A DNA stretch of 48,217 nucleotides from a virus. Positions 10,357 through 48,217 of this stretch are shown one piece after another (the first letter of the stretch is position 1; the number at the start of each line of letters is the position of its first letter). The stretch covers positions 1-48,217 of IMG/VR virus record IMGVR_UViG_3300036859_000196; one strand, given 5' to 3'. The notes below the pieces were generated by a model. That model made no database searches. It was not told the origin of the DNA and saw only the letters and a program-made list of their open reading frames with translations. A program made the translations under genes and the position numbers.

Positions 10357-10710
10357 ATGGACAACGACCTGCGCGGCAGCGCCACCATCACGATCGACGG
10401 GGAGGACTATGAGGTCGGGCAGAGCATCGGCGCGCTCGCCCGCCTCGCCAAGGCCTTCGGGGTCAAGACGTTCGACGACGTGAACCGCCGCGTCAACGAG
10501 ATGAACCTTGAGGACATGCCAGTCGTGCTGCAGTGCCTGCTGCGCGGCAACGGCCATAAGGTCTCCGACGAGGCCATCGAGCGGCTGGCGCCAGGCAGCT
10601 ATTTCGCCATGCTGCGCATGCTGTACGACTCCGCGTTCCCGGCGTCCAAGCCGAACGGCGCCGCGGAGGGCGCCACTGCAAACCCTCCCCAGACATCGCT
10701 GAGTTCCTGA
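10357..10710 (+). CDS. Tail assembly chaperone-like protein
   Basis: 117 aa between major tail and tape measure genes. Confidence 0.5.
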   Translation: MDNDLRGSATITIDGEDYEVGQSIGALARLAKAFGVKTFDDVNRRVNEMNLEDMPVVLQCLLRGNGHKVSDEAIERLAPGSYFAMLRMLYDSAFPASKPNGAAEGATANPPQTSLSS

Positions 10711-10918: not shown

Positions 10919-12778
10919 ATGCCCGACGCCAATCTCAATTTCCAGATCACCGGCGACGCATCGCAGTTCCGCGCGGCGCTGAACCAGGCGCAGACGGCAA
11001 GCCGGCAGACCGCGGAGGGCATGACGACCGCCTTCACGCGCGCGACCGAGAAGGTCGCCACGTCGGTGCGCGATCTCGGCCGCGGCATAGGGGGCGTCTT
11101 CGAGCAGGTCGCCCGCAACATCGGCCAGGCCGCGACGCAGTGGGGCGATCAATGGGCGGGCACGGCGCAGGGCGCTTTCAACTCGGTGTCGTCTGCCGCG
11201 CGCGGAATGATTTCCGCCGTGGCGGGGATCTTCGGCGGCGCTACCGCGCGCATGGCGGACATCGCACTCAACCTGTTTGCGCTGCCGTTCGAGAACGCCC
11301 TGGACCACGCGTCACGCGCCGCTGCGCGGTTCCTGCGAGACATCCCATCGGCATCCACCGCAAGCGCCGGGACGGGCATGAGCTACTTCGAGGCCAACCT
11401 TGCGGTGCTGCGCCGGGCCGTCAGATCGATGATGGGTCTGTCCGGCGGCCTCGGCGACAGGCCCCAAGCGTTCGAATTTGAGCAGGCCATGGCCGGGATC
11501 AATCCCGCGGGCACTAGCCAGTCGCCAATGGAGCGAATGGACCCGCTGCGGATGACGGAACTGGGCCGGACTTTCGGCCCAGCCGTTGCCAACCTCACGG
11601 GCCAGGCGCAGTTGGAGGAGCGCGCTGCCGCAGTGGTCGGCCAGACCGCGGGCGCCATTGCGAGGGCGCGCGCCGAATTGGAGCTGTGGCGCGCGCTGTG
11701 GCTTCAGGGCGACCGGGAGCCGAACGCCGATCAGGTTGCAGCCATGGAGGCAATCCTCAACCGGATCGCCAATGCTGCCGACGCGCGCCAATCGAACCAG
11801 GACAGACAGCAAGTGCTCGCGCAGATCCGGCGCGAGATCGAGATGGAGCGTGAGCGGGCGGACGCGATCAATCTGACCGCAGGCGCTCGTGCGCGGGAAC
11901 GCTCCGAGGCCATAGTCCGCGGCTTCCGCCAAGGCCGGGGCGGCCGAGGCGCGAACCTTCTCGAAGATGACGAGGTGCAGGCTGCGCTCGCGCGCAGGGA
12001 AGCCGCCGCCGACGCCGCCGCGCACACGCGCCTTGCGGCCGAAATGGGCCAGGCGGTGCAATTTCAGACCATGGCATTCGACCGCCAGCGCCAATCGATC
12101 GGGGCCACCGCCGGCGAGATGGCGCGGCTTCTGTTCGTGGAGCAGCAGCACCAGGCGGCGATCCGTGCTGGCGTGCTTCTGTCGGATGATGAAGCAGAGG
12201 CGATCAACCGCAACGCCGAAGCAATCGCTCAAAGGACGCAGGCGCTGACGCTCGCGAACGAGCAGTTCAGGCGGTTGTTGGACACCGGCCGCGTGGTTGC
12301 GAGCAGCCTGGAGAGCGCATTCGCCAAGTTCATGGACGGCACCAAGCAGAGCTGGCGCTCGCTCGTGAACGACCTCTCCAAGGACATGGCCAAGCTCGCC
12401 TTCCGGCAGCTGTTCATCAACACCCTGTTCGGCCAGGGCGCCGGCTCGTCCAACCCGCTGGGGCTATTCGGTCAGGTGTTCGGCGGCTTCCGCGCCGAGG
12501 GCGGCTCGGTGTCGGCCGGCACGTCCTACATGGTCGGCGAGCGCGGCCCGGAACTGTTCCGCCCGCGCCAGTCCGGCACCATCGTGCCCAACAGCGCCAT
12601 GCGCGGCGGCGACCCCGCAGTCATCAACATGCGCATCGACCTCTCCGGCGCGAACGGCGACGAGACCATCGCCCGCATCTCCGGCCAAGCGGCGCGCATG
12701 GCGGCGATGGCGGCGGTGCAGGAGAGCAACGCGGCGTTCCCCGCGCGACAGCGCCGGCTGCAGATGCTGGGGACGTGA
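10919..12778 (+). CDS. Tail tape measure protein
   Basis: 619 aa, Ala/Gln-rich helical; C-terminal FRAEGGSVSAGTSYMVGERGPELFRP typical of tape measure C-terminus. Confidence 0.8.
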   Translation: MPDANLNFQITGDASQFRAALNQAQTASRQTAEGMTTAFTRATEKVATSVRDLGRGIGGVFEQVARNIGQAATQWGDQWAGTAQGAFNSVSSAARGMISAVAGIFGGATARMADIALNLFALPFENALDHASRAAARFLRDIPSASTASAGTGMSYFEANLAVLRRAVRSMMGLSGGLGDRPQAFEFEQAMAGINPAGTSQSPMERMDPLRMTELGRTFGPAVANLTGQAQLEERAAAVVGQTAGAIARARAELELWRALWLQGDREPNADQVAAMEAILNRIANAADARQSNQDRQQVLAQIRREIEMERERADAINLTAGARARERSEAIVRGFRQGRGGRGANLLEDDEVQAALARREAAADAAAHTRLAAEMGQAVQFQTMAFDRQRQSIGATAGEMARLLFVEQQHQAAIRAGVLLSDDEAEAINRNAEAIAQRTQALTLANEQFRRLLDTGRVVASSLESAFAKFMDGTKQSWRSLVNDLSKDMAKLAFRQLFINTLFGQGAGSSNPLGLFGQVFGGFRAEGGSVSAGTSYMVGERGPELFRPRQSGTIVPNSAMRGGDPAVINMRIDLSGANGDETIARISGQAARMAAMAAVQESNAAFPARQRRLQMLGT

Positions 12779-23218: not shown

Positions 23219-23247
23219 TTGACGTACTGACCTTGAGCGTCTACATT
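23219..23247 (+). promoter_or_regulatory. Sigma70-like promoter inside the left inverted repeat
   Basis: TTGACG, 17-nt spacer, TACATT upstream of transposase start. Confidence 0.4.
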
Positions 23248-23275
23248 GGCGGTCATGAGATCAGGGGATGCCGCC

Positions 23276-24202
23276 ATGAACCTCACCAATTCGATTTTCC
23301 AGGACGCCGAGAAGGCCCGCGAGTTTCTTGAGGCTCAGCGTTGGCCGGATGGTCCCATTTGCCCCCACTGCGGCGTTATCGCTGACGCCACCAAACTCGC
23401 CGGCAAGAGCACGCGAGCTGGCGTCTACAAGTGCAAGTCTTGCGAGAAGCCTTTCACCGTCACGGTCGGCACCGTATTCGAGCGCTCAAAGATCCCACTC
23501 AACAAGTGGTTGCTGGCGACGTTTCTGCTCACGGCTTCCAAGAAGGGAATGAGCAGCCACCAGATCCACCGTAGTCTGGAGGTTACTTACAAGACCGCTT
23601 GGTTCATGACCCATCGCATCCGCGAGGCCATGCGTGACATCAATGCCGGCCCCATCGGTGGCGAGGGCGGCGACCTGGAGAGCGACGAAACTTACATCGG
23701 CGGCAAGGCCAAGAACGCCCACAAGGGCAAGCCCGAGCCGAAGAAGCATGCCGTGCATGCCCTTGTGGAGCGCGGCGGTCGTGTGCGCGCCACCCATGTC
23801 GCCGACGTGACCGCCAGGACGTTGCGCTCGGTCATGGAGAAGCACGCAGACAAGCGTTCTACGCTTCATACGGACGACGGCCTCACGGGCTTGTCCATTG
23901 GCAAGGACTTCGCCGGCAGCACAACCGTCAACCACAGCGCTGGCGAGTATCACCGCTACAAGGACGGCGCCGGCATCCAATCTGCCGAGAGCTTCTTTGC
24001 GATCCTGAAGCGGCAGGTCTACGGAACGCACCACGCGATCAGCGAGGCGCATCTGCAGCGCTATGTGACGGAAGCCACCTTCAAGTGGAACCACCGCATT
24101 GCGCTGGGCGTGGACGACACCGGCCGCGCCAAGGCTGCTCTCAAGTCCATCGGCGGCAAGCGTTTGACCTATGGGACGATTCGTGGAGCCCAGAACGCCT
24201 AA
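23276..24202 (+). CDS. IS1595-family transposase (ISXO2-like DDE)
   Basis: N-terminal zinc ribbon RWPDGPICPHCG...YKCKSCEKPFTVTVGTVFERSKIPLNKWL then LEVTYKTAWFMTHRIREAM. Confidence 0.85.
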   Translation: MNLTNSIFQDAEKAREFLEAQRWPDGPICPHCGVIADATKLAGKSTRAGVYKCKSCEKPFTVTVGTVFERSKIPLNKWLLATFLLTASKKGMSSHQIHRSLEVTYKTAWFMTHRIREAMRDINAGPIGGEGGDLESDETYIGGKAKNAHKGKPEPKKHAVHALVERGGRVRATHVADVTARTLRSVMEKHADKRSTLHTDDGLTGLSIGKDFAGSTTVNHSAGEYHRYKDGAGIQSAESFFAILKRQVYGTHHAISEAHLQRYVTEATFKWNHRIALGVDDTGRAKAALKSIGGKRLTYGTIRGAQNA

Positions 24203-27437: not shown

Positions 27438-27908
27438 CTATGCTGCCTTCGACTTAGCTGACTCGAAATCCAGCTCCACTTTGTCGCCTTGCCAAAGGAC
27501 GATTGGAACCTTCTTCCCATCCGCCTTCACCTCAATCGCGACAATCCCCAACCTCTCTAGGCTGCGCAGCGTGCGAGTTAGATTTGACAGGGCGCGATCT
27601 GACTTCTCAGCCAACTCAGTCAATGACTGAGGCTGTGAATTTCGGATGATCTCCAGCAACAACATGTTCTTCTCGGTCAACACCTTGAAGAGCGCATCTA
27701 GCGACGACACCCAAACCCTCGGCTCGTGGGCCGACGGCTTCTCCCCGCGCGCGATCCTTATCATTCGCTCCCGAACGTAACTGGGCGGAGCGATGCCAAC
27801 TCGCAAAGTCTTCGTTACTGCCACGGCACGCCCTCGTCCTCGTCCGCCGCGTCGCACTCCAGCCATATGATGTCTCGTGTGATGGTGCCGCTCAGTTCTA
27901 CGCTCCAT
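27438..27908 (-). CDS. Winged-helix DNA-binding protein
   Basis: LLLEIIRNSQPQSLTELAEKSDRALSNLTRTLRSLERLGIV; start codon uncertain. Confidence 0.45.
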   Translation of the reverse strand: MERRTERHHHTRHHMAGVRRGGRGRGRAVAVTKTLRVGIAPPSYVRERMIRIARGEKPSAHEPRVWVSSLDALFKVLTEKNMLLLEIIRNSQPQSLTELAEKSDRALSNLTRTLRSLERLGIVAIEVKADGKKVPIVLWQGDKVELDFESAKSKAA

Positions 27909-28060: not shown

Positions 28061-28366
28061 TCAATCTCTCGTTTCCAGGAACCCAGCAGCGCCGACAGTC
28101 CACGTGAAACCGCCGCGCCGCATCATCTCCTCGAACCCGACAACCTCCTCCTGTCTGATGGTGAGGTCGCCGCACTTGCCGCCGTTGATCCAGACACCAT
28201 AGGTGGTGTGGCCCGGAGTGTCATGCAGGACGCGGAACGAAGCGCTGCGGATGTCCACTTGCTTGTCGCTCTTCGGCATCGCGGGGGGGCATCCTTCGTG
28301 GTGAATGAGTTCTGCTTCAAGCTTCGCGAACAACGCGTGCGGCTCCAAGCTCAGCACGCGCGCCAT
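28061..28366 (-). CDS. Hypothetical protein
   Basis: High third-position GC in minus frame; overlaps upstream gene by 16 nt. Confidence 0.5.
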   Translation of the reverse strand: MARVLSLEPHALFAKLEAELIHHEGCPPAMPKSDKQVDIRSASFRVLHDTPGHTTYGVWINGGKCGDLTIRQEEVVGFEEMMRRGGFTWTVGAAGFLETRD

Positions 28367-28599: not shown

Positions 28600-28795
28600 C
28601 CTTGCGCAGTTGGCGGCGAGCCGCACCGAGGACACGTCGCCGGCTCCGTCACATAGTTTTCGGAGGCGCCAGAAGAGGGGATGATCGACCTGACGCGATA
28701 GTGCAGAGAATGTAGTACGTAATCGCGTGGCTGTCAAGTCGCCTCACGAGCTGACACAGCTTGACTCTTGCCGTCGTGTCTGCTATGTGTCAGTC

Positions 28796-28969
28796 ATGAG
28801 CACCATGGCGCGACTCAAGAAGCTGTTTACGCTCTACCTTGACCCTAAGCTGCTGGCGCGGCTGGAAGCGTGGCTGTCCAGGCAGGACGTGCCACCCAGC
28901 AGGACGGCCGTAGTCGAGGCGGCCCTGCGCGAGTTCCTGGAGAAGCGCGAGAAGGGGCGGAAAGCGTGA
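28796..28969 (+). CDS. Ribbon-helix-helix (CopG/Arc-like) protein
   Basis: MARLKKLFTLYLDPKLLARLEAWL...SRTAVVEAALREFLE; TTGACT-17-TATGTG promoter-like upstream. Confidence 0.55.
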   Translation: MSTMARLKKLFTLYLDPKLLARLEAWLSRQDVPPSRTAVVEAALREFLEKREKGRKA

Positions 28970-31120: not shown

Positions 31121-31936
31121 CTAGGTCGGTTCACATGAACCGACCAACGTCCGCGTATCCGAGAAGCGGGGGGGGGCCGCAGGGGTGCTGGCGAGTTCAC
31201 CCACCATCCACTTCGCGGCATCGGCCTTGATCTGCTCGAACACGACGGGGTGCTGGCTCTTGAAGTCCGGCATGCGCGACGACGCCACGTATCCCTGCGC
31301 GGTCGCGTCGAGCCAAATCTGCGTCCAGCGCGCCGCGTCGAGTCCGAGCAGTTTGAAGTCGCGTCGCGTCACGGGTCTCCGCTCCAGAATGGCAACGATC
31401 TTGAGCGCCTTGATCTTCCACGCCGTCAGTTGGACCGGGGCACTATGGCCGGCGCCGCTGTCGGGGACATAGTCAGGGAGGGCGACCCGCTTCACCGGGC
31501 ACCACTCGTGCCAATGTCGGTCATCGCCCCAGCGCTCGGCGACGTGCGGCAGATCGGGTTCGAACCTGCGGCGGTAGACCCGCTCGGACGGTGGCCATAT
31601 CGTTATCACAGTGAGTCCGAGCCAGTTGCAGATCGTGCCGAGCCCGTTCTGCTTTCCTCCTTCTGGCACCAGCACGGCACGACAATCCGGGCCGATCTCG
31701 GCGGCTCCGTACCAACGTTCGGGCAGCGCCTGCACCGCCACCGTGTTGTTGAGGATGAGCTTGGCCTCGATGCCAATCTGGAAGCCGTCTTCCCTGCGAA
31801 CGAGCAGGATGTCCCAGCCGCCAGTCTCGGCATACGCAACCCAGGCGTCACCCTTTGTGACCTGCGTGATGAACTCGGCGCAGAGCGCGACCTCGCTCTC
31901 GAAACCGGGCTTGCGGGATCGCTTCGTGGCCGTCAT
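31121..31936 (-). CDS. Hypothetical protein with PD-(D/E)xK nuclease-like motif
   Basis: Starts at ATG overlapping integrase stop; motif DILLVRREDGFQIGIEAKL; G9 tract encodes PPP near C-terminus. Confidence 0.45.
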   Translation of the reverse strand: MTATKRSRKPGFESEVALCAEFITQVTKGDAWVAYAETGGWDILLVRREDGFQIGIEAKLILNNTVAVQALPERWYGAAEIGPDCRAVLVPEGGKQNGLGTICNWLGLTVITIWPPSERVYRRRFEPDLPHVAERWGDDRHWHEWCPVKRVALPDYVPDSGAGHSAPVQLTAWKIKALKIVAILERRPVTRRDFKLLGLDAARWTQIWLDATAQGYVASSRMPDFKSQHPVVFEQIKADAAKWMVGELASTPAAPPRFSDTRTLVGSCEPT

Positions 31937-33039
31937 TCCCTGCCCCGCTTGTCCTCGATCGCCTTCGGCTCCCGCAGCGACAGCGCATTCGCCGCGCGCT
32001 GCAGGTAGTCCGGGTGGAAGCGCGCATAGACGCGCTCGGTGATCGCCGTGGAAGTGTGGCCCATGTACTGGCTGATCTCCGCCATTGGCAGCCGGGCCTG
32101 GGCCATCCAGACACCGGCGGTGTGGCGGAGCACGTAGGGTGTGACATCGTCGAGCTTGGCGCGGCGTGCGGCAGCCACGATGGCCTGGCGCACGCCCTGG
32201 CGGCCAGTGATGGGAGCCTCGTTGTACTCGATTACCCACTCGGTCTGAGCCATCTCGCGCGCCAGCTTTAGCGTCTCATAGGCCTCCTCATTGAGCGGCA
32301 CGCGAGCGCGGCCCTTGCGGGTGGCATCGCGCTCCGGGTCGTCGAGGTTCACGTGACCGAAGTAGGTGACCCCGCTCTGGGGGTGCGTCCACTTCTTGAG
32401 CGTGACGCGGTCCCATGTGAGCTGCAGGATGTGGCTCGGCCGGCCGGCGGTGGCGAACGCCAGCTGCAGCCACACCTTGACGTGGAACGCCTTGGCGGCG
32501 TCGATCAGTCGGACGGCCTCAGCCTTGGTCAACCACCGCTCACGCGGCCGGGCTGCCGGCGGGCGCTCGATCTCCGGACGGTCGCCTGAATAGAGCTTCT
32601 TCCGCTTGCCAAAGCCGAGCGCCGCAGAGAGATAAACCAGCTCGGACCGGATGCCGCCGTTCGACACCCCATGACCGCGCCGATGCCTGGCATAGGCCCG
32701 GCAGGTGGTGTCCTCGATCTGGTCCGGCATCAGGTGCCCGAAGTGTGATGCCATCGGTTTCCAGGCCTCGCGCATGCGGCGCGCGTCCTTGCCGACCGCC
32801 TCGCGGTCCTTGACGTACAGGTCGTAGATCGAGGCCATGGCAACCGCCTTCCCGTCTTTCCCCTGGCGCTGTGCCTCGGAGAGGCCGCTGTTCCAGCGCG
32901 CTACCTCGCGGTCAGCATCCGGCCGATTGCCCGTTGTCGCTTTGATGCCGAGCGCATGGCGCTGTTTGCTGCGTCCATGCCCCCAGACGACGCACCAGAC
33001 GCCGCGGTGTCGTCCGCGCCTGTAGACTTGATCCCCCAT
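31933..33039 (-). CDS. int: Tyrosine integrase
   Basis: N-terminal RGVWCVVWGHGRSKQRHALG arm-type region; C-terminal VLRHTAGVWMAQA...YMGHTSTAITERVYARF catalytic region. Confidence 0.85.
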   Translation of the reverse strand: MGDQVYRRGRHRGVWCVVWGHGRSKQRHALGIKATTGNRPDADREVARWNSGLSEAQRQGKDGKAVAMASIYDLYVKDREAVGKDARRMREAWKPMASHFGHLMPDQIEDTTCRAYARHRRGHGVSNGGIRSELVYLSAALGFGKRKKLYSGDRPEIERPPAARPRERWLTKAEAVRLIDAAKAFHVKVWLQLAFATAGRPSHILQLTWDRVTLKKWTHPQSGVTYFGHVNLDDPERDATRKGRARVPLNEEAYETLKLAREMAQTEWVIEYNEAPITGRQGVRQAIVAAARRAKLDDVTPYVLRHTAGVWMAQARLPMAEISQYMGHTSTAITERVYARFHPDYLQRAANALSLREPKAIEDKRGRE

Positions 33040-33233
33040 CGCACCAGCAACGCCTCCAGATCCTCGCGCCTCACGCGCACCATGCCGTCGATCCGAACCA
33101 CGGGTAGGCCCGTGCCGGGTTGATCCTTCTCGCGCTCGATCAGCGCGTAGACCTTGCTCTTCGAGCAATCGAGCTCCCGCGCGACGCTGCGGACCGAGAG
33201 AAGACGCGGCGGCAGAACTGCGGTGTCGGTCAT
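32901..33233 (-). CDS. xis: Excisionase / AlpA-like HTH protein
   Basis: LLSVRSVARELDCSKSKVYALIE...LPVVRIDGMVRVRREDLEALL; 3' end overlaps int start. Confidence 0.5.
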   Translation of the reverse strand: MTDTAVLPPRLLSVRSVARELDCSKSKVYALIEREKDQPGTGLPVVRIDGMVRVRREDLEALLVRWGIKSTGADDTAASGASSGGMDAANSAMRSASKRQRAIGRMLTAR

Positions 33234-33451
33234 GGCCCCGCCCTCTCATAGACCCGCGCCAGCTCGGCCCGCGTATAGGCCCCGTCGTAGCGGTCGCTCG
33301 CGGCGTCGACGACCCGGCAGCCCGCCTCGAATTCACGCATCTCGCGGCGGTGCATCCACCACAGCATCGCAAGGCCGCCAGCGAGACCGACGACGCAGCC
33401 GACGAGGCCGCCAAGGGCGCCGACGGCGAGAAGGATCGGATCGAAAGTCAT
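33230..33451 (-). CDS. Small membrane protein
   Basis: Hydrophobic N-terminus ILLAVGALGGLVGCVVGLAGGLAMLWW. Confidence 0.4.
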   Translation of the reverse strand: MTFDPILLAVGALGGLVGCVVGLAGGLAMLWWMHRREMREFEAGCRVVDAASDRYDGAYTRAELARVYERAGP

Positions 33452-34115: not shown

Positions 34116-34373
34116 TCACCACCCCTGATCCGGCAGCCGCCGCCCGAGCTTCCACCTGCCCCCGATGAACGAGGCCTTGAAGTAGGCGGCGCGGTCGCCG
34201 TTGAGGGCTCGGACGATCGGCTGCACAAGTGCCTGCCTGCGGATACGCGCATCGTCCTCCCGAGGCACGATCAGCACCATCTCGCGATGCGGACCGGCAT
34301 GGACGACGGTTGCCTTGACGACTTCGACGGTCATGTCCTGCGTGCCCTCCAGGTCTGGCCGATAGTCGGTCAT
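34116..34373 (-). CDS. Hypothetical protein
   Basis: Internal Met MTDYRPDLEG... of ORF 34116..34421. Confidence 0.35.
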   Translation of the reverse strand: MTDYRPDLEGTQDMTVEVVKATVVHAGPHREMVLIVPREDDARIRRQALVQPIVRALNGDRAAYFKASFIGGRWKLGRRLPDQGW

Positions 34374-34831
34374 CACGCGGCCGCCCTCGCCTGCTTGAGG
34401 TGCGCGCGCCGGTCGAGCCACGCCGCGATCTCGGTGGCCCCACGGCTGAAGGCGCGCAGGTCCTCCGAGGTGTAGGTGTCTGCCGCAGCAACGACGGAGC
34501 GGTCGCGCGGCTTGTCGCTTGGTTCGACCGCGCCGATCGCCGCGAGCAGAGACTTGGCGTCATCGGACAGCGCATCCCAGTCGCGATGCTCGGATACGAA
34601 CGTGCCCTTCCCCTGCCTGCGGATCAGCACGCCCTCCGCTTCCAGCGCGTCGAGCGCCTTGCGCATCGTACCGGAGCTGACGCCGTACTCAGCAGCCAGA
34701 GCGCCCTCATTGGGGAGGGGGAAGCCGGGTTTCCATTCGCAGGAACGAATGCGCTCAGTCAGGCGCTCTTGCGCCTGAATGTAGAGCGGCGTGATTTTGA
34801 AACGGTTCTCGCCGTTGATGGTCGTGTGCAT
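34373..34831 (-). CDS. GntR-family winged-helix regulator
   Basis: LPNEGALAAEYGVSSGTMRKALDALEAEGVLIRRQGKGTFV. Confidence 0.55.
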   Translation of the reverse strand: MHTTINGENRFKITPLYIQAQERLTERIRSCEWKPGFPLPNEGALAAEYGVSSGTMRKALDALEAEGVLIRRQGKGTFVSEHRDWDALSDDAKSLLAAIGAVEPSDKPRDRSVVAAADTYTSEDLRAFSRGATEIAAWLDRRAHLKQARAAA

Positions 34832-35778: not shown

Positions 35779-36285
35779 TCATCCCAACCTGACCTGCAAT
35801 GTCTGACCACCGTTGCTCAGTTCGGCGCCTGGGATGGCTTTGCCGTCCTTCAGCGCGGCGAGAACGGCGCGCCTGTCGAGCTTCGGTGTTTGCGTGACCT
35901 TGAAATCGTCAGGGATCGCCGCCTCGTCCGTGATCACCAGCGACGGCGGCACGGCCCGGCACGACACGGTGCCGAGCGGCGTCTCCAGCCGCTGCAGGCC
36001 GCCGACCTCCATGGCCGTGAGTAGAGCGGCACGGATGCGCTCCTCCTGATCCTCCAGCCGCTTGCCGCGCTCACCCAGGACGCTGAGCGTCGCGTTGATC
36101 CCGCTGACCAGCGCGCGGATCTCGACGATGCGCGCCAACGCGTGCCGAATGGCGTCGTGCAAGTCGGTGCTGCCCTCAACCATGTCGCGCTGCAGAATGT
36201 CGTCGTTCTCCAGGTCCAGCGCGAACATGGCCAGAAGCGCGCGCGCCGCATCAATCTGGGTACGCAATTCGCCGGCCGCGCTCAT
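35779..36285 (-). CDS. Hypothetical coiled-coil protein (Gp157-like by position next to recombinase)
   Basis: 168-aa ORF upstream of RecT-like gene. Confidence 0.35.
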   Translation of the reverse strand: MSAAGELRTQIDAARALLAMFALDLENDDILQRDMVEGSTDLHDAIRHALARIVEIRALVSGINATLSVLGERGKRLEDQEERIRAALLTAMEVGGLQRLETPLGTVSCRAVPPSLVITDEAAIPDDFKVTQTPKLDRRAVLAALKDGKAIPGAELSNGGQTLQVRLG

Positions 36286-36947: not shown

Positions 36948-37793
36948 CTATGCGGTCTCAATCAACTCGATCACCTTGTCGGCCATTTTTGTCCACGCCG
37001 CGCTCCACGCCGCGCTCCACGCCGCGCTCTCCGCGCTCCACGCCGCGCTCTCCGCGCTCCACGCCGCGCTCTCCGCGCTCCTCGCCGCGCTCTCCGCGCT
37101 CCTCGCCGCGCTCCTCGCCGCGCTCGCCGCGCTCCTCGCCGCGCTCTCCGCGCTCCACGCCGCGCTCCACGCCGCGCTCCACGCCGCGCTCTCCGCGCTC
37201 ATCGCCGCGCTCCACGCCGCGCTCTCCGCGCTCATCGCCGCGCTCCTCGCCGCGCTCGCCGCGCTCCTCGCCGCGCTCCTCGCCGCGCTCCTCGCCGCGC
37301 TCGCCGCGCTCCTCGCCGCGCTCCTCGCCGCGCTCTCCTCTGGACGTGCGCCCTTGCACATCGGCAAGAGAACGTCAGCACACTGACGCACAGCGTCCCG
37401 CACCAGATCATGCTCGATGCCTGGATTGACGCTGCTGTCTGTCAGCAGCCAATGCAGAAAGCGCCAGCCCACGCAGGACAGATCGGCGCCGGGGCGGATC
37501 GCGCGCATGAAACGCTCGGGCCACGCCTGAGCGGCGCCATTCGGCAGGCCTTCAAAGATCGAGTCTTCCAGGTGTGCCAGCATCACCGGGATGCCGAAGC
37601 GCGTCTCGTACTCCACGTGGTTGTCGCTGTAGAGCGTGCAGCCGACCGCGCACCCCTTGCCGTTCTGCCAATACTGGCCCTTGATGATCTCGTCGGCGGC
37701 GCGGTGGCGGGCGAGTTGGGCCAGGATGTCGATCTTGGCCTGGGGGTCGCCGTGGTAGGCCTGCATCGGGGTGCTCTCCTGCAATGGCGGCAT
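36948..37793 (-). CDS. Protein with globular N-terminal domain and ~29 tetrapeptide repeats
   Basis: Repeats SAAR/SAAW/SAES/SAAS/SAAM encoded by 12-nt units; likely start ATG 37766 (AGGAGA RBS). Confidence 0.55.
   Translation of the reverse strand: MPPLQESTPMQAYHGDPQAKIDILAQLARHRAADEIIKGQYWQNGKGCAVGCTLYSDNHVEYETRFGIPVMLAHLEDSIFEGLPNGAAQAWPERFMRAIRPGADLSCVGWRFLHWLLTDSSVNPGIEHDLVRDAVRQCADVLLPMCKGARPEESAARSAARSAASAARSAARSAARSAASAARSAAMSAESAAWSAAMSAESAAWSAAWSAAWSAESAARSAASAARSAARSAESAARSAESAAWSAESAAWSAESAAWSAAWSAAWTKMADKVIELIETA
36990..37340. repeat. Tandem array of ~29 imperfect 12-nt repeats
   Basis: Units like GCGCTCCACGCC / GCGCTCTCCGCC; all six frames open across the array. Confidence 0.85.
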
Positions 37794-38392: not shown

Positions 38393-38839
38393 CTAACGCC
38401 CGCCGCGTCGGACCCAGGTTATCGGCGCGGCCCAATCGATCAAGACGTTTTCCATGGGCCGCGACAAGGGGTTATAGGACCGCAGCGTGTAGCGATCCGG
38501 CATAGTGCCCTTGTCGAGGATCTTAATCAGCGTCTCGCCGTCGTCGGTCCGCAGCGCGCAGTCGAGCCCGATCAGGTTGTCGAGATACTTGCCGGCCCGT
38601 CTCTGGCAGAACAGCTGATCGCCGTCGCGATACGTGGGCGACATCGAGTCGCCGCGAACCTCGATTGCAAAGGCTCCCGACCCCGCCTCGAAAGCGAAGT
38701 CGGCCACCTCGGGCGGGCGGCCCTTTGTCGGCTCCTGGAAGGGCGTCCAGCGCTCCGCGCCATTTGCAATGCCCACCAGCGGGATCTGGAGCTGGAAGCG
38801 CTCGTCGCCCGACAAGAGCATCATGGGGTGCACGTCCAA
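38393..38839 (-). CDS. S24 (LexA/CI-type) peptidase domain, probable C-terminal part of a frameshifted CI-like repressor
   Basis: VRGDSMSPTYRDGDQLF (Ser) and TLIKIL (Lys); HTH-like sequence continues upstream in this frame and in the neighbouring frame. Confidence 0.65.
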   Translation of the reverse strand: MDVHPMMLLSGDERFQLQIPLVGIANGAERWTPFQEPTKGRPPEVADFAFEAGSGAFAIEVRGDSMSPTYRDGDQLFCQRRAGKYLDNLIGLDCALRTDDGETLIKILDKGTMPDRYTLRSYNPLSRPMENVLIDWAAPITWVRRGGR

Positions 38840-39081
38840 GACGTGGGCCAGCTTGACGAACTTATCGATGCTTGGATCGTGGCCGCGATTGAGCCAGTCA
38901 CGCGCCCCCCAATCTTTAGCGACGCCTCCCGCATGCTCATGCCCTTCTGCTTGAGCAGCCGGAGGGCGCGCCTGCGCCAGTCCAAGTCCATGGCGACGCG
39001 GTAGGGGCTTTTTCCATCGTGCACAATCCTTGAGGGAAATTTGCCCTTGTCATAGGGGTTTTTTCCCCCTATAAGGCGGTC

Positions 39082-39297
39082 ATGAGCGAAGCGCAATCCT
39101 TCCTGGTCGAGATCGAAAAGTTTCTTGTGCGCACGGGCATGACGCCCGCGGCGTTCGGCAAAAGGACGGCCAACGATGGCAAGTTCGTCGATCGGCTGCG
39201 GCGCGGCGGTCAGGTGACCTTGGGCACTGCCGAACGTATCCGCGAGTTTATCGCTGGGTACGAGGTGCCGCGCGAGCGGCGGCGTCGGGTGGCTTAA
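39082..39297 (+). CDS. Cro-like small regulator
   Basis: 71-aa ORF divergent from repressor; GMTPAAFGKRTANDGKFVDRLRRGGQVTLGTAERI. Confidence 0.4.
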   Translation: MSEAQSFLVEIEKFLVRTGMTPAAFGKRTANDGKFVDRLRRGGQVTLGTAERIREFIAGYEVPRERRRRVA

Positions 39298-41074: not shown

Positions 41075-41338
41075 ATGGCGCTGAGGTTCATCGACCTTGC
41101 GATTGCCAAGGGCGACCTCAAATTCGGCTACGGAGCAATCGCCGCTCATCTGGAGATCATGACCGGCGAGGAACACACGGTCGGCATGGTAGCGGGATTG
41201 CTCGACAGAGAAGGGAAGCGTAGGCCGCATGAAAAGCAGAAGCCCCCGGCTGCTGACCGCCGAGGGCTTCGAGAACTGAGTAACCCGTCCCGGCAAGGAG
41301 GATCACACATGGACACCAAGGAGGCATCCGATGCCTGA
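41075..41338 (+). CDS. Hypothetical protein
   Basis: Internal Met MALRFIDLAIAKGDLKFGYG... of ORF 41054..41338. Confidence 0.3.
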   Translation: MALRFIDLAIAKGDLKFGYGAIAAHLEIMTGEEHTVGMVAGLLDREGKRRPHEKQKPPAADRRGLRELSNPSRQGGSHMDTKEASDA

Positions 41339-42305
41339 TGAAATAGAGGCAAACGGCGGCAAAAGCAAGGCCCCCAAGCGGAAATCCACGCGCGATAGCG
41401 ACCTTTGGTACAAGCGCTACCCGGCTCGGTTCCGCAGAGACACGATGCACGATCATCCGATGCCGTTCGATCTGCGATGCCAGTGGAGCCTGCTGACCGA
41501 TCTGTTCTACGAGCACGGCGGTCCGCTGCTGAATGACGACCGATGGGTCGCTCTCCAGTTCGGCTGCGACGTGCGCAAATGGAAGCATATCCGCGCGCAG
41601 CTTTTCGCTCATGGGAAACTAACCATCGGCCCCGACGGATTGATCCACAACAAGACCGCCGACGAGGTGATCGGCGAGCGCGCCGACAAGCTCGTAAAGA
41701 CTGCCGTTGCGCCAGCAAGACGACGCCTCGGGAAGGGCGCGACCCCTGCCAGTACCCCTGCCACTACCTCGGTCGGTAGTCCCCCCGGTAGTCCCCCCGG
41801 TACTGGCGCCGATCTTTCCGAAAAGCCCAATGATATCAACGAAGGCGCGCAAAAAACGGCCGGAGACACGCGCGCGTCTTTAGATCTTCCTTCGGAAGAG
41901 AGAAGAGAGATAGAGAGAAGAGAGATCCAGACTCGTCCTTTTTCCTCTGTTGCTGCGCGTGAGGAAAAGGACGACGAGCGCAGGGTCGTTTTTGAAAACG
42001 GCAAGATCGAACTGTTCAACGGGATGCGAGCCTATTGGCTCGATCGGTTCGATGGTGACGGCGACCGACTGGAACTTGGTCTGATCCAGGCAGCGGCGTT
42101 CGTGCAGTCCAACTCGTCACGCCCCATCGAAGCGCAGGTCAGCGCGCAGCTCGCCCGGCAGTGCGCCGAGAGGCACGACCGCGACAAGCGGTACGCGGCC
42201 GCAGCTGACCGCAAGGCGGCAACCAACCCCGCGTCGGGTACAGACCCGCTGATGTCACCCAAACGCGCCCGTGCGCTCGCTGCCTACCAGGAGATGTTCG
42301 GATGA
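41331..42305 (+). CDS. Replication initiation protein (DUF1376/YdaU-like N-terminal domain)
   Basis: WYKRYPARFRRDTMHDHPMPFDLRCQWSLLTDLFYEHGGPL; internal repeats and AT-rich patch. Confidence 0.55.
   Translation: MPDEIEANGGKSKAPKRKSTRDSDLWYKRYPARFRRDTMHDHPMPFDLRCQWSLLTDLFYEHGGPLLNDDRWVALQFGCDVRKWKHIRAQLFAHGKLTIGPDGLIHNKTADEVIGERADKLVKTAVAPARRRLGKGATPASTPATTSVGSPPGSPPGTGADLSEKPNDINEGAQKTAGDTRASLDLPSEERREIERREIQTRPFSSVAAREEKDDERRVVFENGKIELFNGMRAYWLDRFDGDGDRLELGLIQAAAFVQSNSSRPIEAQVSAQLARQCAERHDRDKRYAAAADRKAATNPASGTDPLMSPKRARALAAYQEMFG
41895..41930. repeat. Two tandem ~15-bp direct repeats inside the replication gene, iteron-like
   Basis: AGAGAAGAGAGAT-AGAGAGAAGAGAGAT with adjacent CTTCC..GGAAG inverted repeat and T-run. 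Confidence 0.35.
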
Positions 42306-45516: not shown

Positions 45517-45654
45517 ACGGTCGCGCGGGATCCAAATTCCGCCCCGCCGGGATCTATGGCAGGTGTGGAAATCACTACAGTGGCGCTTCACGCCCACGCC
45601 CCAAGCCCGCCCGCGCCGAACGTGCCGAGGCGGGCTTTCCATTGCCCCACATCG

Positions 45655-46245
45655 ATGGCCAGCAAGCAGAAGTCCCGCTCGAAGTCCGCACCGAAGGCAA
45701 AGCCCGCGAACAGCTCCAAGCGGAGCCGCGGCAGGCCAAGCGACTTCAAGTCGGAGTTCTGCGATCAGGCCGAGAAGCTGTGCAAGCTCCTCAACGCCGA
45801 CGATCTGGCGCTCGCGGCCTTCTTCGAGAAGGACGTCGCCACCATCAACCGATGGAAGAAGGCGCACGCTGAATTCCGCGCGTCGATAAAAAGGGGGAAG
45901 ATCGCGGCCGACATCGAGGTCGCGCACAGCTTTCATGAACGCGCCCGCGGCTACGAGTGGCAAGAGGCCGTGCCGATCAAGCTGAAGACCGTCGAGTACC
46001 ACGATGGCAAGCGGGTCAAGGAGAGCGAGCGCGTCGAGATCGTCATGGTCACAAAGCGCCAACCTGCGGACGTGACGGCGGGCATCTTCTGGATGAAGAA
46101 CCGACAGCACGAGACGTGGCGCGACAAGCACGATCACGCGCACTCCGGCGCCGTCGATGTGAACCTCACAGAGGTACGCGGTGGAATTGCGGGCAAGCTC
46201 GATCGCATCGCTTCCGCCCTCGAAAAGGCAAGCGTTCCTCGATAG
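45655..46245 (+). CDS. terS: Terminase small subunit
   Basis: Basic N-terminus then RGRPSDFKSEFCDQAEKLCKL..DVATINRWKKAHAEFRASIKRGK HTH-like region. Confidence 0.65.
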   Translation: MASKQKSRSKSAPKAKPANSSKRSRGRPSDFKSEFCDQAEKLCKLLNADDLALAAFFEKDVATINRWKKAHAEFRASIKRGKIAADIEVAHSFHERARGYEWQEAVPIKLKTVEYHDGKRVKESERVEIVMVTKRQPADVTAGIFWMKNRQHETWRDKHDHAHSGAVDVNLTEVRGGIAGKLDRIASALEKASVPR

Positions 46246-47527
46246 CCTGAGCGGCGACGAGCTCGCCCACATCGAGCACGACTGGCGCTTCTGGGCTCGC
46301 GACGAGCAACTCGCACCGCCGGGCCTGTGGCGCATATGGCTGCTGCTGGCCGGACGCGGCTTCGGCAAGACCCGCGTCGGTGCCGAGTGGTGCCACGAAC
46401 GCGCCGCCGAGTCCGTCTGCCGCATCGCCATCGTCGGCGCCACGATGGACGACGCCCGCAAGATCTGCGTCGATGGCGAGTCCGGCATCATGGCGTGCGC
46501 CAAGCCGTGGTTCCGCCCGACCTTCGAGCCGTCGAAGAACGGCGGCACGGTGACGTGGCCCAACGGCTCGCTGGCCGAACTCTACTCGGGCGAGAAGCCG
46601 GACGGCCTGCGCGGGCCGCAGTTCCATGCGGCGTGGCTCGACGAGCTGCTGAAGTGGCGCCGCATGCAGGCGGCCTGGGACATGCTCAGGTTCGCGCTGC
46701 GGCTTGGCACTCACCCGCGCACCGTGATAACCACCACGCCGACGCCAGCGAAGCTGATCAAGGACCTGGTCAATGACAAGCGCACGGGGGCGGACGGTTT
46801 GCCCATGGTGCGCGTAGTGCGCGGCTCGACCTACGCCAACGCCGCCAACCTATCGGCCGACGCCCTCGACGAACTGCGCACCAAGTACGAGGGCACCCGC
46901 CTCGGCCGGCAGGAGCTGTTCGGCGAGATCCTCGAAGACCGCCCCGGCGCGCTCTGGACATATGCCAACATCGACGAGCACCGCATCAATGACCCGGAAC
47001 AGGTCCCCAAGCTTGAGCGCACCATCGTCGCCATCGATCCTCCCGTCACTTCGGGCGAGGATGCCGACGAGTGCGGCATCGTCGCCGCCGGGCGGGGGCC
47101 GCACTCGCACGCCTACGTGCTCGGCGATGCGTCCGAGCGGGGCCTCTCGCCTAAGCAATGGGCTCAGAAGGCGCTTCGGCTTTACCACGACACCGGTGCG
47201 GGCCTGATCGTCGCCGAGGCCAACAACGGCGGCGAGATGATCAAGCACGTGATCAACACCGAGGCGCCGGAGGTCAAGGTCAAACTGGTGCACGCTAGCA
47301 AGGGCAAGGTCACCCGCGCCGAGCCGGTGTCGAGCCTCTACGAGCAAGGCCGAGTGCACCACGTCGGCACCTTCAAGGCGCTCGAAGATCAGCAAACTGA
47401 CTTTACTGTGGATTGGGACCGCGACGTGATGGGCTACTCGCCCGACCGCGTCGACGCCCTGGTGTGGGCGATCACCGAACTGATGCTGGCCAACCGCGCC
47501 CGCGGCGGCCTTGTGGGGACGTTCTGA
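46181..47527 (+). CDS. terL: Terminase large subunit (GTA-like family)
   Basis: N-terminal LSGDELAHIEHDWRFWARDEQLAPPGLWRIWLLLAGRGFGKTR (Walker A-like); GTG start overlapping terS. Confidence 0.85.
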   Translation: MELRASSIASLPPSKRQAFLDSLSGDELAHIEHDWRFWARDEQLAPPGLWRIWLLLAGRGFGKTRVGAEWCHERAAESVCRIAIVGATMDDARKICVDGESGIMACAKPWFRPTFEPSKNGGTVTWPNGSLAELYSGEKPDGLRGPQFHAAWLDELLKWRRMQAAWDMLRFALRLGTHPRTVITTTPTPAKLIKDLVNDKRTGADGLPMVRVVRGSTYANAANLSADALDELRTKYEGTRLGRQELFGEILEDRPGALWTYANIDEHRINDPEQVPKLERTIVAIDPPVTSGEDADECGIVAAGRGPHSHAYVLGDASERGLSPKQWAQKALRLYHDTGAGLIVAEANNGGEMIKHVINTEAPEVKVKLVHASKGKVTRAEPVSSLYEQGRVHHVGTFKALEDQQTDFTVDWDRDVMGYSPDRVDALVWAITELMLANRARGGLVGTF

Positions 47528-47529
47528 TG
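47357..47529 (+). repeat. 173-bp direct repeat, copy B (3' end of terL)
   Basis: Identical to 48045..48217; its last 127 nt equal window 1..127. Confidence 0.85.
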
Positions 47530-47946
47530 GGTGACCTACTGGCAAGAGCGAGAGACCTTGCGCAGCGCGCCAGGAGCATTGAGGCGGATGCGCAGCGCCT
47601 TGACGACGCAATGGCCGGATCTCCGACGAGAAGTGAGGTCGAGCGCGCAGTCGACGAAGCTCAGCGGCTTAAGCCCGCCGTCTCGGCTCTCGCCAGGGGA
47701 CAGCACGCCCTCATCGATGAGGCCGGCCGCCTCGATGACGTCGATGACGCACCCGGCATCGAGGATGCCGTTGGCGCACTATTCGACGATCTGGAGTTCG
47801 ACGCCGAGCGCATCCTCTGGCTCATCAACAGCGTCATCTATGATGGTGGGAAGTACCTATCCACCCATACGCACGACACGTTTAACGATTGGCTAGACGC
47901 GAACAAATCGGCCCCTCGCCCCGGCGCTCACGCCGTCTACCGCTAA
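47527..47946 (+). CDS. Small acidic helical protein, C-terminal ...RPGAHAVYR tail family
   Basis: ATG 47527 overlaps terL stop (TGATG); shared C-terminal motif. Confidence 0.6.
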   Translation: MGDLLARARDLAQRARSIEADAQRLDDAMAGSPTRSEVERAVDEAQRLKPAVSALARGQHALIDEAGRLDDVDDAPGIEDAVGALFDDLEFDAERILWLINSVIYDGGKYLSTHTHDTFNDWLDANKSAPRPGAHAVYR

Positions 47947-48044: not shown

Positions 48045-48217
48045 CACCACGTCGGCACCTTCAAGGCGCTCGAAGATCAGCAAACTGACTTTACTGTGGA
48101 TTGGGACCGCGACGTGATGGGCTACTCGCCCGACCGCGTCGACGCCCTGGTGTGGGCGATCACCGAACTGATGCTGGCCAACCGCGCCCGCGGCGGCCTT
48201 GTGGGGACGTTCTGATG
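48045..48217 (+). repeat. 173-bp direct repeat, copy C (terL 3' end remnant)
   Basis: Identical to 47357..47529; continues as window 1..127. Confidence 0.85.

What the first reader, a model, noticed from the sequence alone, without database searches (positions are those of the whole stretch)
38393..38991. CI-like repressor split by a frameshift at a G6/C6 tract
The S24 peptidase domain (GDSM Ser, later Lys) is open from 38839 down, but its frame has no start codon upstream. The same frame upstream encodes HTH-like sequence (WLNRGHDPSIDKFVKLAHVLDV), and an adjacent frame encodes MDLDWRRRALRLLKQKGMSMREASLKIGG from ATG 38991. The frames meet at the C6 run 38905-38910 (G6 on the coding strand). 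One extra G, or a -1 ribosomal or transcriptional slip, would fuse them into a ~200-aa HTH-S24 repressor. So the repressor is either inactivated (clear-plaque-type mutant), slippage-regulated, or mis-called at a homopolymer.
Basis: partly seen in the sequence, partly recalled or inferred. Interest (0 to 1): 0.65.

Follow-up and report, generated by a model that had tools for sequence, protein, structure and literature searches.

The report
Phage repressor gene broken by deletion
The lysogeny repressor gene of this uncultured temperate phage is broken by a 31-base out-of-frame deletion (not a one-base slip at the G run), so the phage probably cannot lie dormant; this is an ordinary, well-known kind of mutant.

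Summary
On the minus strand, ATG 38991 opens 29 codons of repressor sequence. The S24 peptidase domain continues in the -1 frame to the stop at 38393.

The lesion is not a one-base slip at the G6 tract. The two nearest relatives (L117 and L119, about 86% nucleotide identity) carry exactly 31 more bases here. The next two carry 13 more. All ~38 homologues read HTH plus S24 in one frame.

Adding one G would give a protein 10 residues shorter than the nearest intact allele and 4 shorter than any homologue. The missing residues are the helix 2-3 connection and the first half of the DNA-recognition helix.

No feature of programmed frameshifting is present: no canonical slippery heptamer, no downstream RNA structure, no conservation of the shift.

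The window is a circularly assembled, otherwise complete temperate tailed-phage genome with integrase, Gam, a divergent cro-like gene and a full structural module. The best reading is a recent null allele of a lambda CI/LexA-like repressor, a natural clear-plaque-type variant.

A sister contig (L117) carries an independent amber stop in the same gene.

This is a known kind of event and of low interest.

The parts
38393..38991 (-). Whole disrupted repressor gene (CI/LexA-like: XRE-type HTH + S24 peptidase), 599 nt. The intact nearest allele is 630 nt (209 aa + stop).
   Evidence: phrog_4 transcriptional repressor, 5.5e-22
38905..38991 (-). Codons 1-29 (helix 1, helix 2, Gly-Gly) that still match the intact relatives in the ATG frame.
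38821..38904 (-). Out-of-frame tail of the 56-aa N-terminal ORF, ending at TGA 38823-38821.
38897..38910 (-). Interval that contains the deletion junction; it includes the G6 tract 38905-38910. The window is 31 nt shorter here than L117 and L119, and 13 nt shorter than L001 and L120. The exact breakpoint is ambiguous.
38393..38902 (-). Remainder of the gene in the -1 frame: second half of helix 3 (RDWLN), helices 4-5, linker and S24 domain, open to the TAG stop.
38645..38647 (-). Codon of the catalytic Ser (GDSM), residue 116 of the frame-corrected protein.
   Evidence: In the 24-sequence alignment R113, G114 and M117 are invariant and D115 nearly so, but the Ser column is not: several close relatives (P0002-P0006, P0022) read GDAM, P0023 reads GDNM and P0008 reads GDGM.
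38522..38524 (-). Codon of the catalytic Lys (IKIL), residue 157, invariant in the family alignment.
38819..38824 (-). ATGATG: two Met codons of the S24 frame that overlap the TGA stop of the 56-aa ORF. This is a possible termination-reinitiation site giving the 143-aa orphan C-terminal fragment that JGI called as a gene.
   Evidence: (P0001); expression is inferred only
38992..39081 (.). Divergent control region between the repressor and the cro-like gene. It holds two copies of TAGGGG(C/T)TTTTTCC (39002-39015 and 39053-39066) and the block TATAGGGGGAAA, which is conserved in relatives.
   Evidence: 2 matches found, 0.13 expected
39082..39297 (+). Divergent 71-aa cro-position gene, conserved next to the repressor in all related contigs.

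Best explanation
The locus is the immunity repressor gene of a temperate tailed phage: an XRE-type helix-turn-helix domain joined to a LexA/lambda-CI-type S24 domain, transcribed divergently from a cro-position gene. In this genome it carries a recent loss-of-function allele. A 31-nt (3x10+1) deletion removed the helix 2-3 connection and the first half of the recognition helix, and threw the S24 domain out of frame. Translation from ATG 38991 therefore gives only a 56-aa peptide with no complete HTH. No full-length repressor can be made. The phage is expected to be unable to establish or maintain lysogeny on its own, making it a natural clear-plaque/virulent-type derivative. Shown: the split, the size of the deletion, what it removes, the intact state in relatives, and the absence of recoding signals. 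Inferred: that the allele is biologically real rather than an assembly variant, the deletion mechanism (possibly slipped mispairing at a short GCGTG repeat), and the lytic phenotype.
For: **The gene is a CI/LexA-like repressor**
- 36 homologues of about 200 aa all carry HTH and S24 in one frame. The one apparent 'S24-only' call (P0037) is a mis-set start.
- The family N-domain profile matches solved XRE HTH domains: 3bs3, SinR, P22 c2.
- The AF2 model of relative P0003 (pLDDT 85) best matches lambda repressor 3bdn and LexA 3k2z by Foldseek.

**The deletion and what it removes**
- The nearest intact allele, P0038 (L119, 209 aa), reads ...KIGGRVAGRKADTQVRDWLNRG....
- DNA alignments show the window exactly 31 nt shorter than L117 and L119, and 13 nt shorter than L001 and L120.
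- The AF2 model places helix 3 at AKADTQVRDWLN. The window keeps only RDWLN.

**The lesion is recent and specific**
- dN/dS between window and L117 is 0.07 for the N part and 0.11 for the S24 part, and neither half carries a further stop or indel.
- No other gene shows split-frame matches to the proteins of relative L003.

**Genome context**
- The window is an otherwise complete phage: terminases, portal, capsid, tape measure, tyrosine integrase, Gam.
- The contig ends overlap by 127 nt, so it assembled as a circle without host flanks.

**Independent support and precedent**
- A sister contig (L117) has an independent CAG-to-TAG stop at codon 77 of the same gene.
- Spontaneous cI frameshifts give clear-plaque TP901-1 mutants (PMC4892519). 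Isca_cpm is a naturally occurring lytic derivative with a defective repressor (PMC8263002).
Against: - No reads are available, so the allele could be a minority variant or an assembly product.
- The exact breakpoint is ambiguous.
- The proposed GCGTG microhomology rests on the window's own left flank (CGC GTG). The relatives have CGG GTA or CGG GTT there, so the repeat is not shown.
- The clade varies naturally in length at exactly this loop, from +0 to +10 residues. A two-step history (in-frame shortening, then a 1-nt loss) cannot be strictly excluded.
- Other regulators are encoded in the genome: GntR-type at 34373-34831, MarR-like at 27438-27908 and RHH at 28727-28969. One of these could conceivably contribute to immunity.
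- The phenotype is untested.
Confidence: 0.8

Rival explanations
1. One-base event at the homopolymer. The true or ancestral allele is an unusually short but in-frame repressor (KIGGARDWLNRG) with G7. The window shows G6 either through a sequencing miscall or through a real 1-nt deletion.
For: - Adding one G restores a single 199-aa frame that scores on S24 and weakly on HTH_3.
- The helix 2-3 loop is length-variable in the nearest clade.
Against: - The corrected protein would be 10 aa shorter than the nearest alleles and 4 aa shorter than every one of ~38 homologues. It would lack the conserved x-x-x-x-V start of the recognition helix.
- The conserved Val before RDW would become Ala.
- The 127-nt end overlap suggests a k-mer, short-read type of assembly, where G6 miscalls are uncommon (inference).
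- Other homopolymers in the window of 6-9 nt show no split genes in the region that could be compared.
Confidence: 0.07
2. Programmed recoding. A -1 ribosomal frameshift or transcriptional slippage at the G6 tract makes a regulated amount of full-length repressor.
For: The frames are related by -1, and a G run lies at the junction.
Against: - The zero-frame context is ATT GGG GGG CGC, that is U GGG GGG. This is not an X XXY YYZ heptamer, because the P-site tRNA would re-pair on UGG.
- The 86 nt downstream fold no better than shuffles: z = +0.64, with 144 of 200 shuffles folding as well.
- G6 is far shorter than the long A/T runs known for transcriptional slippage (established knowledge).
- No relative shares the shift.
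- The product would lack half the recognition helix.
- The same genome does contain a textbook -1 site (A AAC CCT) in its tail chaperone gene, which shows what a real one looks like here.
Confidence: 0.02
3. Artefact or minority variant. The 31-nt deletion exists only in the assembly (a collapsed variant or chimeric path) or in a small fraction of genomes, and the dominant phage has an intact repressor.
For: - The contig shows an odd 173-nt direct repeat at its ends (47357-47529 = 48045-48217), so its assembly graph was not trivial.
- Metagenomic populations are mixed.
Against: - A 31-nt deletion with only 1-5 nt of flanking homology is not a product of k=127 graph collapse or of typical read errors (inference).
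- An independent null allele in a sister contig shows that such variants occur in nature.
Confidence: 0.08
4. The half-gene is used. The S24 fragment (143 aa from ATG 38824) is expressed by termination-reinitiation at the ATGA overlap. It acts on its own, for example by forming mixed dimers that poison the repressor of a homoimmune prophage.
For: - The stop of the 56-aa ORF overlaps ATGATG in the S24 frame.
- The S24 frame is intact.
- The Ser/Lys dyad is present.
Against: - The ATGATG is ancestral (HPMM is present in intact alleles), so the overlap is incidental.
- There is no Shine-Dalgarno sequence.
- The low dN/dS is explained by recency.
- No relative has this arrangement.
Confidence: 0.04

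Closest known systems
Lambda CI / P22 C2 / 434 cI repressors and LexA (HTH + S24 Ser-Lys autopeptidase)
   Same: - Same two-domain architecture in intact relatives.
- The XRE-type five-helix N-domain matches P22 c2, SinR and 434.
- The whole-protein model best matches lambda repressor 3bdn and LexA 3k2z.
- The gene is divergent from a cro-position gene, across a short control region with repeated sites.
   Different: - In this genome the gene is split, so no HTH-S24 protein is encoded.
- In the nearest clade the Ala-Gly scissile pair of LexA/CI (family consensus VSAGEGW) reads NGAE, SGAE or TAAE.
- The turn between helices 2 and 3 carries a 4-10 residue basic insertion not seen in the classical repressors.
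Clear-plaque / naturally lytic repressor-defective derivatives of temperate phages (lambda cI-, TP901-1 cI frameshift mutants, mycobacteriophage Isca_cpm, Bacillus phage B450C)
   Same: A temperate genome with an integrase and a complete switch region, but with a disrupted or defective repressor gene. Frameshifts in cI are a documented cause (PMC4892519). Natural repressor-defective lytic derivatives are documented (PMC8263002, PMC12786184).
   Different: Here the variant is known only from a metagenome assembly. Plaque type, lysogeny and host are not observed.
Programmed -1 frameshift sites such as tail assembly chaperone G/GT
   Same: Two overlapping frames related by -1.
   Different: No canonical heptamer, no stimulatory structure, no conservation. 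The genuine G/GT-type site of this phage lies at 10680-10686.

Membership tests
CI/LexA-like S24 repressor | C-terminal S24 domain with Ser-Lys catalytic dyad | tested here: met
   Pfam PF00717 at 2.6e-10. Ser of GDSM at 38645-38647 and Lys at 38522-38524. The Lys column is invariant in 24 sequences. The relative's model matches lambda CI and LexA C-domains.
CI/LexA-like S24 repressor | N-terminal DNA-binding HTH fused in the same polypeptide | tested here: not met
   HTH and S24 lie in different frames. Even after frame correction, half of helix 3 is missing. The feature is met in all relatives.
CI/LexA-like S24 repressor | Ala-Gly (or Cys-Gly) scissile bond in the linker | tested here: not met
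   Family consensus is PLVGxVSAGEGW. The window reads PLVGIANGAERW, and the near relatives read SGAE, TAAE or TGAE. Whether these are cleaved is unknown.
CI/LexA-like S24 repressor | RecA-stimulated self-cleavage and operator binding | not testable with these tools
   Needs biochemistry.
Lambdoid-type genetic switch | Repressor divergent from a small cro-position gene, with repeated sites in between | tested here: met
   The 71-aa gene at 39082-39297 is conserved beside the repressor in L001, L003-L006, L117, L119 and L120. A 14-nt site occurs twice in the 90-nt spacer, with 0.13 expected.
Programmed -1 ribosomal frameshift | X XXY YYZ slippery heptamer in the zero frame | tested here: not met
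   The zero-frame context is ATT GGG GGG CGC.
Programmed -1 ribosomal frameshift | Downstream stimulatory RNA structure | tested here: not met
   MFE -26 kcal/mol against a shuffle mean of -28.3, z = +0.64.
Programmed -1 ribosomal frameshift | Frameshift conserved among homologues | tested here: not met
   All ~38 homologous genes are in a single frame.
Stand-alone UmuD-like S24 protein | Homologues encode S24 without an HTH at this position | tested here: not met
   Homologues are HTH+S24. The only 143-aa call (P0037) is a mis-set start.

The most novel reading that the evidence does not exclude
Repressor knock-outs are recurrent, and perhaps selected, in this uncultured alphaproteobacterial phage lineage. 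Two of the three closest alleles are null by independent lesions. The window's 31-nt deletion leaves an expressible S24 half, and L117's amber stop leaves an HTH half. If the halves are functional rather than dead, the C-terminal fragment could be made by reinitiation at the ATGA overlap and could poison resident homoimmune repressors, giving a virulent phage a way past immunity.
Probability: 0.05. Interest if true: 0.5.

Novelty: new member of a known kind. Interest (0 to 1): 0.2.

Why it matters
- **Annotation.** The JGI name for the 143-aa call ('phage repressor protein C with HTH and peptidase S24 domain') overstates what is encoded. This genome should be scored as a repressor-defective, probably obligately lytic derivative of a temperate phage, even though it has an integrase.
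- **Scanning.** A frame break next to a homopolymer need not be a homopolymer event. Comparison with close relatives changed the diagnosis from a 1-nt slip to a 31-nt deletion that removes the recognition helix.
- **Ecology.** Two independent null alleles among three close relatives hint that metagenome assemblies may preferentially capture virulent derivatives of temperate phages. That would need read-level data to establish.

Tried and rejected
- **Phage records.** Distant blastn of the locus against GenBank phage records gave no match.
- **Collection scans.** Scans of IMG/VR and JGI metagenome contigs with the S24 fragment gave only relatives of 58% identity or less. Neither collection holds the window, so no same-strain contig could be compared.
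- **GTDB genomes.** Relatives were at most 43% identical, nearly all in Alphaproteobacteria and the closest mostly in Hyphomicrobiales. This gives only a host guess.
It was reached indirectly through the neighbouring 71-aa protein.
- **Exact look-up of the window's 71-aa protein** found nothing on record.
- **P0037**, a possible second 'S24-only' allele, was rejected as a mis-set start.
- **Promoter scan** of the switch region found no sigma-70 consensus match.
- **The GCGTG direct-repeat model.** I first favoured a clean 11-nt direct-repeat slippage model for the deletion, inferred from the P0038 protein sequence. The relatives' DNA (CGG GTA / CGG GTT) does not show that repeat, so I keep it only as an inference.
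- **IS1595-type transposase ORF.** A search for terminal inverted repeats around it gave nothing convincing.

Full report
**1. The observation**

All coordinates here are on the minus strand.
- ATG 38991 opens MDLDWRRRALRLLKQKGMSMREASLKIGG. The frame then leaves homology and stops at TGA 38823-38821, giving 56 aa.
- The frame one base back reads ...GARDWLNRGHDPSIDKFVKLAHVLDVHPMMLLSGDERF...EVRGDSMSP...LIKILDKG...WVRRGGR and ends at 38393.
- The first possible start in that frame is TTG 38839.
- The C6 run is at 38905-38910.
- A one-G-corrected translation hits Pfam Peptidase_S24 (2.6e-10). It also hits HTH_3 across the junction (residues 12-56, E 2.3e-4, 21.6 bits against a 23-bit cutoff). The 56-aa ORF alone hits nothing.

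The described split is real and not a chance pattern.

**2. What the gene is**

- The window is a whole 48,217-nt JGI contig. JGI called only a 143-aa S24 protein here, P0001.
- Thirty-six homologues of about 180-260 aa all carry the N-terminal domain and S24 in one frame.
- The one other 143-aa call (P0037, a Hyphomicrobium MAG) turned out to be a mis-set start on an intact single-frame gene.
- Related contigs share the neighbourhood: the repressor, a divergent 71-aa gene and a ~534-aa gene.
- The family profile matches solved XRE-type HTH domains: 3bs3, SinR, P22 c2.
- An AlphaFold model of relative P0003 (pLDDT 85) has five N-terminal helices plus a beta-rich C-domain. Its best Foldseek matches are full-length lambda repressor 3bdn and LexA 3k2z, and its N-domain matches P22 c2 and 434.
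- PHROGs assigns the corrected protein and P0038 to 'transcriptional repressor / CI-like repressor'.

**3. What the lesion is**

The protein alignment showed that the corrected window protein has a gap between KIGG and RDWLNRG that no homologue has.

DNA alignment shows how much shorter the window is than each relative:

| Relative | Window shorter by |
|---|---|
| L001 | 13 nt |
| L002 | 37 nt |
| L117 | 31 nt |
| L119 | 31 nt |
| L120 | 13 nt |

The 90% cluster of P0001 holds a 209-aa intact member, P0038...SLKIGGRVAGRKADTQVRDWLNRGHEPG....
- tblastn of P0038 on the window gives residues 1-33 in the ATG frame and residues 41-209 in the S24 frame, at 85% identity.
- I reached its DNA (L119) and that of a sister contig (L117) through the neighbouring genes.
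- The position of CGTGACTGGCTC relative to the ATG is 89 in the window and 120 in L117, confirming the 31-nt offset.

The difference is therefore 3n+1 with n of at least 4, not one base.

The breakpoint can be placed anywhere within 38897-38910.
- The G6 run is either the Gly28-Gly29 codons (GGY GGC in relatives) or is partly created by the junction.
- If the ancestor had the CGC GTG codons that the window now shows, the deletion was flanked by a GCGTG direct repeat, as in slipped-mispairing deletions.
- The relatives have CGG GTA or CGG GTT, so this step is inference only.

**4. What is lost**

In the P0003 model, helix 2 is residues 20-27, the loop is 28-35 and helix 3 is 36-47, AKADTQVRDWLN.
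- The window retains only RDWLN of helix 3.
- By alignment with 3bs3, P22 c2 and 434, the missing S/D-E/T-T/S-Q/A-V positions are the N-terminal end of the recognition helix.
- In the classical repressors that end carries the base-contacting residues (established knowledge of the 434 and P22 c2 complexes).

A G7 allele, a -1 ribosomal slip or a transcript with an extra G would therefore still not give a canonical DNA-binding domain.

**5. Recoding is not supported**

- The zero-frame context ATT GGG GGG CGC is not an X XXY YYZ heptamer.
- The 86 nt downstream fold no better than shuffles, z = +0.64.
- No relative shares the shift.
- For contrast, the same genome has a textbook A AAC CCT heptamer, in frame, 22 nt before the stop of the gene upstream of the tape measure. 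Its -1 frame is open for 76 codons.

**6. Context**

| Feature | Coordinates (strand) |
|---|---|
| Small terminase | 45556-46245 |
| Large terminase | 46181-47527 |
| Portal | 11-1501 |
| Major head protein | 3880-5226 |
| Tape measure | 10919-12778 |
| Tyrosine integrase | 31933-33414 (-) |
| Gam-like protein | 35779-36285 (-) |
| DUF1376 replication-type protein | 41331-42305 |

- The first 127 nt equal the last 127 nt, so the contig closed on itself and has no host flanks.
- Against the proteins of relative L003, only the repressor gives split-frame matches.
- dN/dS between window and L117 is 0.07 for the N part and 0.11 for the S24 part. Neither half has further stops or indels. The lesion is therefore recent.

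**7. A second null allele**

L117 (Logan SRR14194070) has the same gene in one frame but with TAG in place of CAG at codon 77, right after the HTH domain. The S24 part continues intact behind the stop. L119, from a neighbouring run, is intact. Two of the three closest alleles are thus disrupted by independent events.

**8. Interpretation**

The best-supported reading (0.8) is a recent loss-of-function allele of a CI/LexA-like immunity repressor in an otherwise complete temperate phage, that is, a natural clear-plaque-type variant.

Precedents:
- Spontaneous cI frameshifts in clear-plaque TP901-1 mutants (PMC4892519).
- Isca_cpm, a naturally occurring repressor-defective lytic derivative (PMC8263002).
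- The B450T/B450C turbid/clear pair, which differs only in the repressor HTH (PMC12786184).

Rivals:

| Rival | Confidence |
|---|---|
| Short in-frame allele plus a 1-nt homopolymer event | 0.07 |
| Assembly or minority variant | 0.08 |
| Functional orphan S24 fragment made by reinitiation at the ATGA overlap 38821-38824 | 0.04 |
| Programmed recoding | 0.02 |

Limits:
- No reads were available.
- The breakpoint is ambiguous.
- The phenotype is untested.
- Other regulators are present (GntR-type, MarR-like, RHH).

**9. Novelty**

This is a new, uncultured member of a well-known kind. The scientific interest is low. The practical value lies in correct annotation and in the lesson that a frame break beside a homopolymer should be checked against close relatives before it is called a slip.

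Noticed in passing
window 10680-10686 (gene 10357-10710, -1 frame open to 10910): A canonical -1 slippery heptamer A AAC CCT lies in frame, 22 nt before the stop of the gene just upstream of the tape measure gene (10919-12778). The -1 frame continues for 76 codons. It looks like the conserved tail-assembly-chaperone G/GT-type programmed frameshift.
   Followed up: partly
window 47357-47529 and 48045-48217 (the latter overlaps 1-127): A 173-nt exact direct repeat of the 3' end of the large terminase gene flanks a 515-nt unique segment that holds a 121-aa ORF (47531-47896) with no PHROG hit. The last 127 nt of the contig equal the first 127. This is either a real duplication around an inserted gene or an assembly-graph loop.
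   Followed up: partly
L117 887-889 (Logan SRR14194070 contig): The sister phage carries an independent in-frame TAG (CAG in the window and in P0038) at codon 77 of the same repressor gene. This leaves a 76-aa HTH-only product, with the S24 part intact behind the stop.
   Followed up: yes
window 38770-38790 region (IPLVGIANGAERW); alignment A1 columns 90-103: In the window and its nearest clade, the LexA/CI-type Ala-Gly scissile pair (family consensus VSAGEGW) is replaced by NGAE, SGAE, TAAE or TGAE. The catalytic Lys stays invariant, and the window keeps the Ser (GDSM), but several close relatives read GDAM at the Ser position. These repressors may not self-cleave in the usual way.
   Followed up: no
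relatives P0003-P0007 and P0038 (alignment A1 columns 38-50); L002, L003, L119: The nearest clade carries a 4-10 residue, Arg/Lys/Gly/Pro-rich insertion of variable length in the normally tight turn between HTH helices 2 and 3. It is modelled as a low-confidence loop (pLDDT about 66). This is an indel hotspot and an unusual feature for an XRE HTH.
   Followed up: partly
window 36992-37338, inside ORF 36948-37793 (-): A GC-rich tandem array (periods 12, 21 and 33; about 10-31 copies; 76-84% matches) encodes a long SAARSAA/SAESAAW-type repeat protein, about 600 nt downstream of the repressor gene. It has only a weak PHROG hit to a minor tail protein.
   Followed up: no
window 23246-24202 (+): An ORF with IS1595/ISXO2-like DDE transposase and zinc-ribbon domains (1e-28, 7e-12) sits in the lower-GC (~61%) part of the phage genome. 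It may be an insertion sequence inside the phage. No clear terminal inverted repeats were found.
   Followed up: partly
window 31168-31176 and 28283-28289: G9 is the longest homopolymer in the window. It lies near the 3' end of ORF 31121-32239 (-; phrog_15779), next to the integrase gene. G7 lies at 28283-28289. Either could be a slippage-prone tract.
   Followed up: no
window 39002-39015 and 39053-39066: Two copies of TAGGGG(C/T)TTTTTCC lie 51 nt apart in the 90-nt repressor/cro spacer; these are the only two in the window, against 0.13 expected. One copy forms the palindrome TAGGGG-N7-CCCCTA. The block TATAGGGGGAAA is conserved in relatives. These are candidate operators.
   Followed up: partly
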